A stretch of DNA of 64,000 nt from Escherichia coli (GTDB lineage Bacteria > Pseudomonadota > Gammaproteobacteria > Enterobacterales > Enterobacteriaceae), in NCBI RefSeq assembly GCF_965641715.1, contig NZ_OZ282453.1; one strand, written 5' to 3'. Made by a program: the position numbers. This document shows, in pieces, positions 5,408 to 8,400 of the stretch (position 1 is the first letter of the stretch; every line of letters starts with the position of its first letter).

Positions 5408-8400
5408 AGGAGGTTGCTGCGCTCATGGCCTGCACGTCCAGGTAAGGGCAAGCGCGGGGATTTTCCCCGCGCATCTGACTAGCAGATTCATTTTCTCATG
5501 GCACCCCTTTTACACTTCAGTTAGTGCATGTTTTTTTCGATGCACTAATAGAACCATCATTACAGACAAATTTGCCGCCTGCCGTACAGTGTGAGATCCC
5601 CCCTTTCGAACCAGAACAGGGTTTGCGCCCGGCATCGGCATAAAAGGAAACAAGCGTTCCCATAAACAAAATAAGTGCCAGTTTTTTCATATAACCTCCA
5701 TGGTTTATCGAATCTTATGTTCGATTTGAACGTTATACGCTGGTTTATTTTGATACCGTTGATGAGATCAAAGATCGGGTGAATTGATTAAAAATAAGCC
5801 AGATGGACGTATGGGCAAGGATTATGGTTTTATTTGTCATACAAATAAATATAATAGGCGCTTCCGATGTAGACCCGTATTCTTCGCCTGTACCACGGGT
5901 CGGTTTTAGTACAGGCGTTTTCTTTAAATATCCTTCAGGAACGTTTACGCGGCATCATGCGTAGAAGTGTGTTGTCCTTCCAGAAATAGTGGTGTGCCAG
6001 TGCAGCCGCAGCGTGCAAACCGATGACAAAATATCCCAGATTCGCCAGCGTTTCATGCCACGACTTTAAGCTATCTACCCGTTCGAAATTGGCCTCTGAA
6101 GCGTAAGGCATCGTCAAACCAAACGCAAACCACGGGTTGCCTCGGTTATACATCATCACCAAACCAATCACTGGCAGCGCAATAAACAGGAGATAAATCA
6201 CCAAATGTCCCAAATGCGCCAGTCCCGTCATCATCGGTTTTGGCTTAGGTATAATCGGCGGGGTTGGGTATTTCAGCCTTAACAAAAGACGAACGACCAT
6301 CAGCACGAGAATTGATATGCCGCAGGAAACATGAATCATGTTGATGAGTGGCCGATCGCTACGTGGGAAGAAACCCCGAAACTCCATTGCGCAATACGCT
6401 GCGATAACCAGCAAAAAGACCAGCCAGTGAATGCTGATTTGTAACCTTGAGTATTTATTTTCCATAACATTTCCTGCTTTAACATAATTTTCCGTTAACA
6501 TAACGGGCTTTTCTCAAAATTTCATTAAATATTGTTCACCCGTTTTCAGTACGTTACGTTTCACTGTAAGAATGGAGATTGCCCATCCCGCCATCCTGGT
6601 CTAAGCCTGGAAAGGATCAATTTTCATCCGAACGTTCCTGACAGGAGAAAACCATGAGTAAAGTTGGTATTAACGGTTTTGGTCGTATCGGTCGACTGGT
6701 GTTGCGTCGATTACTTGAAGTCAAAAGCAACATAGACGTTGTCGCTATTAATGATCTCACTTCTCCAAAAATTCTCGCCTACCTGCTGAAACATGATTCA
6801 AACTACGGACCGTTCCCCTGGAGCGTTGATTTTACGGAAGATTCACTTATCGTTAATGGGAAAAGTATCGCGGTTTACGCCGAAAAAGAGGCTAAAAATA
6901 TTCCGTGGAAAGCGAAAGGTGCAGAAATCATTGTCGAATGTACTGGCTTTTATACCTCCGCCGAGAAATCGCAGGCGCATCTTGATGCTGGTGCGAAGAA
7001 GGTGTTGATTTCCGCTCCTGCCGGTGAAATGAAAACCATCGTTTATAACGTTAATGACGACACTCTGGATGGCAACGATACCATTGTTTCCGTGGCGTCA
7101 TGCACCACTAACTGCCTTGCGCCGATGGCCAAAGCCTTGCATGACAGTTTCGGGATAGAAGTCGGCACGATGACGACCATTCATGCCTATACTGGCACCC
7201 AGTCACTGGTGGATGGCCCGCGTGGTAAAGATTTACGTGCTTCACGCGCAGCGGCAGAAAATATCATTCCCCACACTACGGGCGCGGCAAAAGCCATTGG
7301 TCTGGTGATCCCGGAACTGAGCGGCAAACTGAAAGGTCATGCGCAACGCGTGCCGGTGAAAACAGGTTCGGTCACTGAACTGGTATCGATTCTCGGAAAA
7401 AAAGTGACTGCCGAAGAGGTGAATAACGCACTTAAACAAGCAACCACCAATAACGAGTCATTTGGTTATACCGATGAAGAAATAGTCTCTTCCGATATCA
7501 TTGGCAGCCATTTCGGTTCGGTGTTTGATGCCACGCAAACGGAAATTACCGCCGTGGGCGATTTACAACTGGTGAAAACGGTCGCCTGGTACGATAACGA
7601 ATATGGCTTCGTCACGCAGCTTATTCGCCCCCTCGAAAAATTCGCTAAACTCTGACGCGCACAGGCGGAGGAAAAAACCTCCGCCTCTTTCACTCATTAA
7701 GACTGTAAATAAACCACCTGGGTCTGCAGATATTCATGCAGGCCATGTTTACCATCTGCGCCGCCAATACCGGATTTACGCCATCCGGCGTGGAAGCCTT
7801 GCATAGCTTCGAAGTTTTCACGGTTGATGTAAGTTTCACCAAACTTCAGCCCTTTAATGGCTTTCATCGCGACGTTCAGATTTTGGGTATAGATTGATGA
7901 GGTCAGGCCGTAATCACTGTCATTAGCCATTGAGATAGCATCTTCCAGCGTGTCGAATGCGACAACTGGCAGCACCGGGCCAAAGGTTTCCTCATGCATA
8001 ATCGACATTTCCTGGCGAACATCCAGCAGCAATGTCGGCGGATAATAATATCCTTTCCCCTCTACCGCTTTGCCACCCAACGCCACTCTCGCCCCTTCTT
8101 CTACTGCGCGCGCCACTTTTTGCTCGACCCTTTCCAGCGCCGCGGCGTTAATCAACGGCCCCATCGCAATGTCGTTGCGTTCAGCGGGGTTACCAAATTG
8201 AACCGCCTGCATCGCTTCACCCAGCCGATTGACGAACTGATCATAAATGCCTTTCTGTACATAAACACGTTCTGCACAGTTACACACTTGCCCACTATTA
8301 ATGACGCGTGAATCAACGATGGCTTTGACTGCCAGTTCAAGATCGGCATCGTCCATTACGATAGCTGGTGCTTTACCCCCCAGTTCCAGGCACACTTTGG

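What the first reader, a model, noticed from the sequence alone, without database searches (positions are those of the whole stretch)
5886..5925. Orphan terminator-like hairpin between ydcA and cybB
gcctgtac...gtacaggc forms an 8-bp stem followed on the plus strand by a T-rich tail, yet no plus-strand gene ends nearby. It could mark the 3' end of an unannotated small RNA, or be a REP-like structural element.
Basis: seen in the sequence. Interest (0 to 1): 0.25.

Follow-up and report, generated by a model that had tools for sequence, protein, structure and literature searches.

The report
Terminator hairpin of known sRNA RydC
The "orphan" hairpin is the transcription terminator and second pseudoknot helix of RydC, a well-studied 65-nt Hfq-binding regulatory RNA of E. 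coli, so the finding is real but already known.

Summary
The hairpin exists exactly as described: stem 5886-5893/5909-5916, 9 bp if 5885:5917 is included, a 15-nt loop and the tail GTTTTCTTT. It is not orphan. It is the 3' part of the plus-strand small-RNA gene rydC, window 5861-5925. This stretch matches Rfam RF00505 over the full model (92.5 bits, gathering score 48, E 1.8e-18). It is 100% identical to the annotated rydC (b4597) of E. coli K-12, which also lies between ydcA and cybB and converges on cybB. Across Escherichia, Citrobacter and Salmonella orthologues the stem is always paired, and 4 of its 9 pairs show compensatory double changes. The large loop holds the 3' strand of a second helix (5872-5878 with 5895-5901), giving the published RydC pseudoknot. 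Published Term-seq places primary 3' ends at the positions equivalent to window 5924 and 5925. A perfect TATAAT (5850-5855) and a conserved palindrome matching the published YieP repressor motif (5831-5845) lie upstream. The 44-nt hairpin occurs once per genome, so it is not a REP element. "Unannotated" holds only for pipeline-annotated records. Novelty: none; interest low.

The parts
5831..5845 (.). Conserved palindrome ATTTGT-CAT-ACAAAT in the rydC promoter (about -30 to -16); candidate operator of the GntR/FadR-type repressor YieP
   Evidence: The block is conserved across Escherichia, Citrobacter and Salmonella, while sequence upstream of it is not. It matches 12 of 15 positions of the published YieP ChIP-exo motif atTTGTaTGAcaAAT, and that paper lists rydC among the targets it selected (PMC7642389). 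YieP represses rydC about 20-fold (PMC11340327). Assigning this exact site to YieP is my inference.
5850..5855 (+). -10 hexamer TATAAT of the sigma-70 rydC promoter; no good -35
   Evidence: Read from the sequence. Conserved in all orthologues except C. koseri, which has TATACT. Described the same way in PMC11340327.
5861..5925 (+). rydC gene: 65-nt Hfq-dependent small regulatory RNA RydC
   Evidence: Rfam RF00505 at 5861-5924, 92.5 bits against a gathering score of 48, E 1.8e-18, model positions 1-64 of 64. 100% identical to K-12 rydC b4597, 1491442..1491506.
5861..5871 (+). Single-stranded 5' seed (CUUCCGAUGUA) that pairs with target mRNAs such as cfa
   Evidence: Invariant in all orthologues and unpaired in the Rfam consensus structure. 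The seed role comes from the literature (PMC4337610).
5872..5878 (+). Pseudoknot helix S1, 5' strand (GACCCGU)
   Evidence: Pairs with 5895-5901. This is the structure annotated in the Rfam model. It is paired in all 9 distinct orthologues but never varies. In the window/K-12 sequence type the eighth Rfam pair (5871:5902) is an A.G mismatch.
5895..5901 (+). Pseudoknot helix S1, 3' strand (ACGGGUC), lying inside the loop of the reported hairpin
   Evidence: In Salmonella RydC, G37C/G39C mutations in this helix destabilise the RNA in vivo (PMC4337610).
5885..5893 (+). Helix S2 (terminator stem), 5' arm: the finding's left arm plus c5885
   Evidence: 9 bp, 100% paired in 9 distinct orthologues, with compensatory double changes at 4 pairs.
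5909..5917 (+). Helix S2 (terminator stem), 3' arm: the finding's right arm plus g5917
   Evidence: MFE and centroid fold.
5918..5925 (+). U-rich tail UUUUCUUU: termination site and Hfq proximal-face binding site
   Evidence: Term-seq primary 3' ends at K-12 1491443(-) and 1491442(-), which map to window 5924 and 5925 (Adams et al. 2021, eLife 62438, supplementary file 1). The tail sits in the Hfq proximal channel in the crystal structure (PMC4337610).
5935..6465 (-). cybB (cytochrome b561 / superoxide oxidase), convergent neighbour; its stop codon lies 9 nt beyond the rydC 3' end
   Evidence: cybB converges on rydC in all true orthologous loci that extend far enough.

Best explanation
The hairpin is helix S2 of the small regulatory RNA RydC (window 5861-5925, plus strand). 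RydC is transcribed from its own sigma-70 promoter (TATAAT at 5850-5855), which the GntR-family regulator YieP represses. Transcription ends at the 9-bp G+C-rich stem and its UUUUCUUU tail by Rho-independent termination. In the finished RNA the 15-nt loop is not free. Seven of its bases (5895-5901) pair with 5872-5878 to form helix S1, so the RNA folds into a compact pseudoknot with the 5' seed (5861-5871) left single-stranded. Hfq binds the U tail and the U-U steps of the loops and protects the RNA. The seed pairs with mRNAs: it activates cfa by blocking RNase E and Rho, and it represses yejABEF, csgD, trpE and pheA. Shown here: identity with rydC, both helices, covariation of S2, single-copy status, synteny and the promoter elements. 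Taken from the literature on identical or orthologous sequence: the 3' end, Hfq binding, the targets and YieP repression. Inferred: the exact YieP operator.
For: - Rfam RF00505 RydC matches over the full model at 92.5 bits (gathering score 48), E 1.8e-18.
- The 65 nt are 100% identical to annotated K-12 rydC b4597, with the same neighbours and orientation.
- In 9 distinct orthologues from three genera, S2 is 100% paired and 4 of 9 pairs carry double compensatory changes. The structure gives 99.3% paired cells against 26-44% when partners are slid by 1-3 columns, and 0 of 500 shuffles reach the observed covariation score.
- S1 is paired in all orthologues.
- Term-seq primary 3' ends assigned to rydC map to window 5924/5925.
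- The crystal-structure paper states that the strong hairpin and U-rich tail mediate Rho-independent termination, that the tail binds the Hfq proximal face, and that the pseudoknot is needed for stability.
- YieP represses rydC; the promoter has a perfect -10 and no -35. The YieP motif is palindromic, and that paper chose rydC among its YieP target genes.
- The region is present in 5415 of 5426 complete E. coli genomes.
Against: - No expression data exist for this particular strain. Every transcript-level fact is carried over from K-12 or Salmonella on the basis of sequence identity.
- Nested-only folding of the 66-nt region is no better than shuffles (z -0.36), and a 15-nt loop is atypical for an intrinsic terminator. 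The pseudoknot explains both points.
- S1 shows no covariation because it never varies, so its support comes from conservation and published mutagenesis, not from my alignment.
- The orthologue set is small (9 distinct sequences). It was gathered with a pattern that fixes 17 of the first 18 nt (one N), so conservation of the seed and of the S1 5' strand is partly by construction.
Confidence: 0.97

Rival explanations
1. The hairpin has two jobs. Besides terminating rydC, it acts on the minus strand as the terminator or 3'-end stabiliser of the convergent cybB mRNA, whose stop codon lies 17 nt before the stem. cybB read-through transcripts would then be perfect antisense partners of RydC.
For: - The inverted repeat also folds on the minus strand, as an 11-bp helix within a -24.8 kcal/mol structure.
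- cybB converges on rydC, with its stop codon 9 nt beyond the rydC 3' end, and the convergent arrangement holds in all true orthologues that extend far enough.
- No other obvious cybB terminator lies between 5935 and ydcA.
Against: - On the minus strand the stem is followed by GAAGAAUACGGG, not a U tract, so a defining feature of an intrinsic or bidirectional terminator is missing.
- In the Term-seq passages returned, no cybB-strand 3' end is listed between the internal cybB end at K-12 1491416 and 1492144.
- The minus-strand fold is not significantly better than shuffles (z -1.45).
Confidence: 0.1
2. A REP-like (repetitive extragenic palindromic) structural element.
For: It is an extragenic palindrome between two genes. 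Nothing else supports this reading.
Against: - The 44-nt hairpin occurs exactly once per genome (lowest, median and highest all 1) in 5406 E. coli genomes, whereas REP elements occur in hundreds of copies.
- It sits inside a full-length Rfam RydC match.
- From my own knowledge, not tested with a tool: it does not resemble the REP consensus.
Confidence: 0.01
3. A previously undescribed small RNA, or a chance hairpin with no function.
For: PGAP-annotated E. coli records show no feature here. A perfect 8-bp stem with a T tail turns up about 2.6 times per shuffled 64-kb window.
Against: - The region is annotated as rydC in K-12 and curated as RF00505.
- It has a published crystal structure with Hfq.
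- The stem shows compensatory covariation.
- Term-seq 3' ends fall on its tail.
Confidence: 0.01

Closest known systems
RydC sRNA (Rfam RF00505; E. coli K-12 b4597)
   Same: All 65 nt are identical. The position between ydcA and cybB, the orientation, the TATAAT promoter, both pseudoknot helices and the U tail are the same.
   Different: Nothing within the RNA. The only difference in the 166 nt compared is one promoter base: window G5836 against A in K-12, inside the palindrome half-site.
Canonical Rho-independent (intrinsic) terminators of Hfq-dependent sRNAs
   Same: A G+C-rich stem followed directly by a U-rich tail that also serves as the Hfq proximal-face binding site.
   Different: The loop is 15 nt rather than the usual 3-8, so the consensus scan missed the real stem and reported a 6-bp alternative instead. 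The loop takes part in a second helix, forming a pseudoknot.
REP elements
   Same: An extragenic imperfect palindrome.
   Different: Single copy per genome, and part of a transcribed sRNA.

Membership tests
RydC (RF00505) | Score against the family covariance model at or above the curated gathering threshold, over the full length | tested here: met
   92.5 bits against 48; model positions 1-64 of 64; E 1.8e-18.
RydC (RF00505) | Conserved single-stranded 5' seed CUUCCGAUGU | tested here: met
   Present at 5861-5870 and identical to K-12. Invariant in the orthologues, though partly by construction of the search pattern.
RydC (RF00505) | Pseudoknot made of helix S1 (nt 12-18 with 35-41) and helix S2 (nt 25-33 with 49-57) | tested here: met
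   Both helices are fully complementary in the window. S2 has 4 covarying pairs and S1 never varies. Physical formation of the pseudoknot rests on the literature.
RydC (RF00505) | Transcript about 64-65 nt long ending in the U tail after S2 | not testable with these tools
   Not measurable for this strain. For the identical K-12 sequence, Term-seq 3' ends at 1491443/1491442(-) map to window 5924/5925.
RydC (RF00505) | Genomic context: 3' end convergent with cybB | tested here: met
   The cybB stop is at 5935-5937 (minus strand), 9 nt beyond the rydC 3' end. cybB is convergent in all true orthologous loci that extend far enough, as the literature describes.
RydC (RF00505) | Hfq binding and regulation of cfa and other targets through the seed | not testable with these tools
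   From the literature only.
Intrinsic (Rho-independent) terminator | G+C-rich stem directly followed by a U tract on the transcribed strand | tested here: met
   A 9-bp stem with 6 G:C pairs, then UUUUCUUU. The 15-nt loop is atypical.
Bidirectional intrinsic terminator | U tract after the stem on both strands (an A tract before the stem on the plus strand) | tested here: not met
   The plus-strand sequence before the stem is UAUUCUU, so the minus-strand tail is GAAGAAUA, which is not U-rich. The Term-seq passages seen list no cybB-strand 3' end there.
REP element | Many dispersed copies per genome | tested here: not met
   Exactly one place per genome in 5406 genomes.

The most novel reading that the evidence does not exclude
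The RydC terminator hairpin also shapes the 3' end of the convergent cybB mRNA. Alternatively, cybB read-through RNA, which is perfectly complementary to RydC, acts as a cis-antisense sponge or RNase III substrate. Either way, expression of the superoxide oxidase gene would be coupled to RydC levels and so to cyclopropane fatty acid synthesis. I found no paper addressing this: four listed papers mention both rydC and cybB, and the passages I read in one of them give only gene order.
Probability: 0.08. Interest if true: 0.3.

Novelty: already known. Interest (0 to 1): 0.04.

Why it matters
As a discovery it matters little, because RydC has been studied since the early 2000s. By the papers read here it has an Hfq co-crystal structure, defined targets (cfa, yejABEF, csgD, trpE, pheA) and an identified repressor, YieP. 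The useful point is practical. Pipeline (PGAP) annotations of E. coli genomes omit rydC, so a reader relying on sequence or on those annotations will keep rediscovering it as an "orphan terminator". An Rfam scan settles the question in one step.

Tried and rejected
- The consensus terminator scan did not report the real stem, because its loop limit is 3-8 nt. It reported a 6-bp alternative at 5886-5900 with G-T pairs, which I disregard.
- Thermodynamic significance of the plus-strand fold was uninformative (z -0.36), since nested folding cannot see the pseudoknot.
- The genome-contig scan with CTTCCGATGTNGACCCGT returned 13 loci. L006, L009 and L015 (Clostridia, Terrabacteria and Kiritimatiellae MAGs) are chance 18-mer matches in GC-rich coding-like sequence, with no RydC continuation and no cybB. 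L013 is cut off after 30 nt.
- The strict pattern missed more distant orthologues that the literature reports (S. enterica LT2, Klebsiella), so covariation rests on three genera only. I ran no further search on this because the question was already settled.
- Frohlich et al. 2013 (EMBO J, doi 10.1038/emboj.2013.222) is not in the held library. Its content is cited only through later papers.
- The REP hypothesis is rejected by copy number.
- The bidirectional-terminator reading is not supported: no U tract and no Term-seq end.
- I checked whether the conserved promoter palindrome was an unreported operator. It matches an already published YieP motif, from a paper that also selected rydC among its YieP ChIP-exo/RNA-seq targets.

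Full report
**Observation.** The window reads cGCCTGTACcacgggtcggttttaGTACAGGCgttttcttt at 5885-5925.
- The arms 5886-5893 and 5909-5916 are perfect reverse complements. c5885:g5917 adds a ninth pair.
- The loop is 15 nt, and the plus-strand tail is GTTTTCTTT.
- ViennaRNA gives this helix as the MFE and centroid structure of 5860-5925 (-14.4 kcal/mol). The fold is no more stable than shuffled sequence (z = -0.36).
- My own count of perfect stems of at least 8 bp with a T-rich tail gives a mean of 2.6 hits per dinucleotide shuffle of the window.
- The flanking protein genes are both on the minus strand: ydcA (5517-5690) and cybB (5935-6465).

**What it is.** An Rfam scan of 4800-7000 returns RF00505 (RydC RNA) at 5861-5924 on the plus strand. 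The score is 92.5 bits against a gathering score of 48, E = 1.8e-18, covering model positions 1-64 of 64 (repeated on the whole window).
- The K-12 MG1655 record annotates ncRNA rydC (b4597) at 1491442..1491506, between cybB and ydcA, on the strand opposite to both.
- Window 5780-5945 aligned to that K-12 stretch differs at a single base, G5836 against A, which lies upstream of the RNA. All 65 nt of rydC are identical.
- The PGAP-annotated O157:H7 record has no feature here. That explains how the element can look unannotated.
- The 241-nt region is present in 5415 of 5426 complete E. coli genomes.

**Anatomy.** RydC nucleotide n corresponds to window position 5860+n.
- The reported hairpin is helix S2: nt 25-33 with 49-57, window 5885-5893 with 5909-5917.
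- Its 15-nt loop contains ACGGGUC (5895-5901), which is complementary to GACCCGU (5872-5878). This is helix S1, the one drawn in the Rfam consensus.
- S1 and S2 interleave, so the RNA is a pseudoknot. The 5' end CUUCCGAUGUA (5861-5871) stays single-stranded, and the tail is UUUUCUUU (5918-5925).
- The pseudoknot accounts for the unusually large loop. It also explains why the consensus terminator scan, which limits loops to 3-8 nt, missed the real stem and reported a 6-bp alternative.

**Conservation and covariation.** A genome-contig scan for CTTCCGATGTNGACCCGT gave 13 loci.
- Ten are true orthologues: three Escherichia lineages, five Citrobacter, and Salmonella arizonae and diarizonae (the diarizonae locus is cut off after 30 nt and carries no cybB).
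- Three are chance matches in unrelated MAGs.
- On nine distinct full-length sequences, the two-helix structure is 99.3% paired. Sliding the partners by 1-3 columns gives 26-44%.
- S2 is 100% paired. Four of its nine pairs show changes on both sides: G:C to A:U, U:A to C:G, A:U to G:C, and C:G to U:A.
- 0 of 500 shuffles reach the observed covariation score.
- S1 is paired everywhere but never varies, so the alignment is neutral on it. Its eighth Rfam pair is A.G in the window and in K-12.
- cybB converges on rydC in all true orthologous loci that extend far enough, as the literature also describes.
- The 44-nt hairpin occurs exactly once per genome in 5406 E. coli genomes. This rules out a REP element.

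**Transcript evidence from the literature.** Supplementary file 1 of Adams et al. 2021 (eLife 10:e62438) lists primary Term-seq 3' ends assigned to rydC at MG1655 1491443(-) and 1491442(-) in two conditions. The flanking sequence printed there is ...GTACAGGCGTTTTCTT|T.
- With 1491506 equivalent to window 5861, these ends map to window 5924 and 5925. The latter is the last base of the finding.
- Dimastrogiovanni et al. 2014 (PMC4337610) solved the RydC-Hfq crystal structure. They state that the U-rich tail and the strong hairpin mediate Rho-independent termination.
- The same paper reports that the tail lies in the proximal channel of Hfq, and that disrupting helix S1 (G37C/G39C) destabilises the RNA in vivo.

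**Promoter and regulation.** A perfect TATAAT lies at 5850-5855, and there is no good -35.
- Between genera, conservation starts abruptly at ATTTGTCATACAAAT (5831-5845), a perfect 6+3+6 palindrome.
- PMC11340327 describes the same promoter: sigma-70, a perfect -10 except in C. koseri, and no -35. It shows that the GntR/FadR-family regulator YieP represses rydC about 20-fold in E. coli.
- PMC7642389 derived the YieP ChIP-exo motif atTTGTaTGAcaAAT and selected rydC among its YieP target genes.
- The window palindrome matches that motif at 12 of 15 positions. The C. koseri orthologue matches at 15 of 15.
- Assigning this site as the YieP operator is my inference, but it is consistent with published data.

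**Mechanism.** YieP release allows sigma-70 RNA polymerase to start at 5861. The S2 hairpin and U tail terminate transcription at 5924/5925. The RNA then folds into the S1/S2 pseudoknot.
- Hfq binds the 3' U tail and the loop U-U steps and stabilises the RNA.
- The exposed 5' seed pairs with targets. It activates the long cfa mRNA isoform by antagonising RNase E and Rho, and represses yejABEF, csgD, trpE and pheA.
- Shown here: identity with rydC, the helices, covariation, copy number, synteny and the promoter elements.
- From the literature: the 3' end, Hfq binding, the targets and the regulator.

**Rival readings.**
- Dual use as a cybB terminator. The stem also folds on the minus strand, and the cybB stop codon is only 17 nt upstream of it.
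  - Against this, the minus-strand tail is GAAGAAUA rather than U-rich.
  - The Term-seq passages I saw list no cybB-strand 3' end between the internal cybB end at K-12 1491416 and 1492144.
  - I give this reading about 0.1.
- A REP element, a novel sRNA or a chance hairpin are each excluded by the results above.

**Verdict.** Novelty: already known. Interest: very low. The one practical lesson is that sRNA genes are absent from PGAP annotations.

Noticed in passing
window 5831-5845 (polymorphic base 5836): The conserved palindrome ATTTGTCATACAAAT in the rydC promoter matches the published YieP motif at 12 of 15 positions. K-12 MG1655 and E. coli E69 carry A instead of G at 5836 (half-site ATTTAT), a position shown as high-information in that motif. 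YieP repression of rydC might therefore differ between strains. The 2024 rydC/YieP paper reports finding no known transcription-factor site in this promoter.
   Followed up: partly
window 5150-5445: Complete hokB/mokB/sokB type I toxin-antitoxin locus: Rfam sok RF01794 at 5150-5301 (+), 109.7 bits; mokB ORF 5238-5405 (+); hokB ORF 5296-5445 (+).
   Followed up: no
window 6654-7655 (+): gapC is an intact 333-aa ORF here, annotated as type I glyceraldehyde-3-phosphate dehydrogenase in an O157:H7 record. It is a pseudogene (b4493) in K-12 MG1655.
   Followed up: no
window 38688-38808 (-): MicC sRNA (RF00121, 125.3 bits, full length), next to ompN and nifJ/ydbK as in other E. coli.
   Followed up: no
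window about 40966-64000: Collinearity with O157:H7 PV15-279 stops at 40966, about 50 nt inside the 5' end of ttcA. The stretch 40900-48900 matches lambdoid prophage tail genes (gpJ, Lom, tail fibre and tail fibre assembly), so a prophage appears to be integrated at the ttcA (Rac-type) site.
   Followed up: partly
window about 10207-10342: Compared with O157:H7 PV15-279, the window lacks about 1.8 kb carrying four hypothetical genes between hrpA and ydcF. The window is only 98-99% identical to that strain elsewhere, so it comes from a different E. coli lineage.
   Followed up: no
window about 28600-29020: Several internal repeats of about 200 nt (88-96% identity), within the region corresponding to the 5' part of the gene annotated 'proline-rich domain-containing protein' (upstream half of the ydbA-type autotransporter pair) in O157:H7.
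   Followed up: no
window 5951 (-), equivalent to K-12 1491416 (+): Published Term-seq lists an internal 3' end on the cybB strand 16 nt before the cybB stop codon and 26 nt from the RydC 3' end. It could reflect convergent-transcription interference or processing; it remains unexplained.
   Followed up: no
L007 8765-9295 (Citrobacter koseri NCTC10786): cybB downstream of rydC matches in three separate tblastn pieces, suggesting a frameshifted or pseudogenised cybB. The same species has the only non-consensus -10 (TATACT) and the best match to the YieP motif.
   Followed up: no
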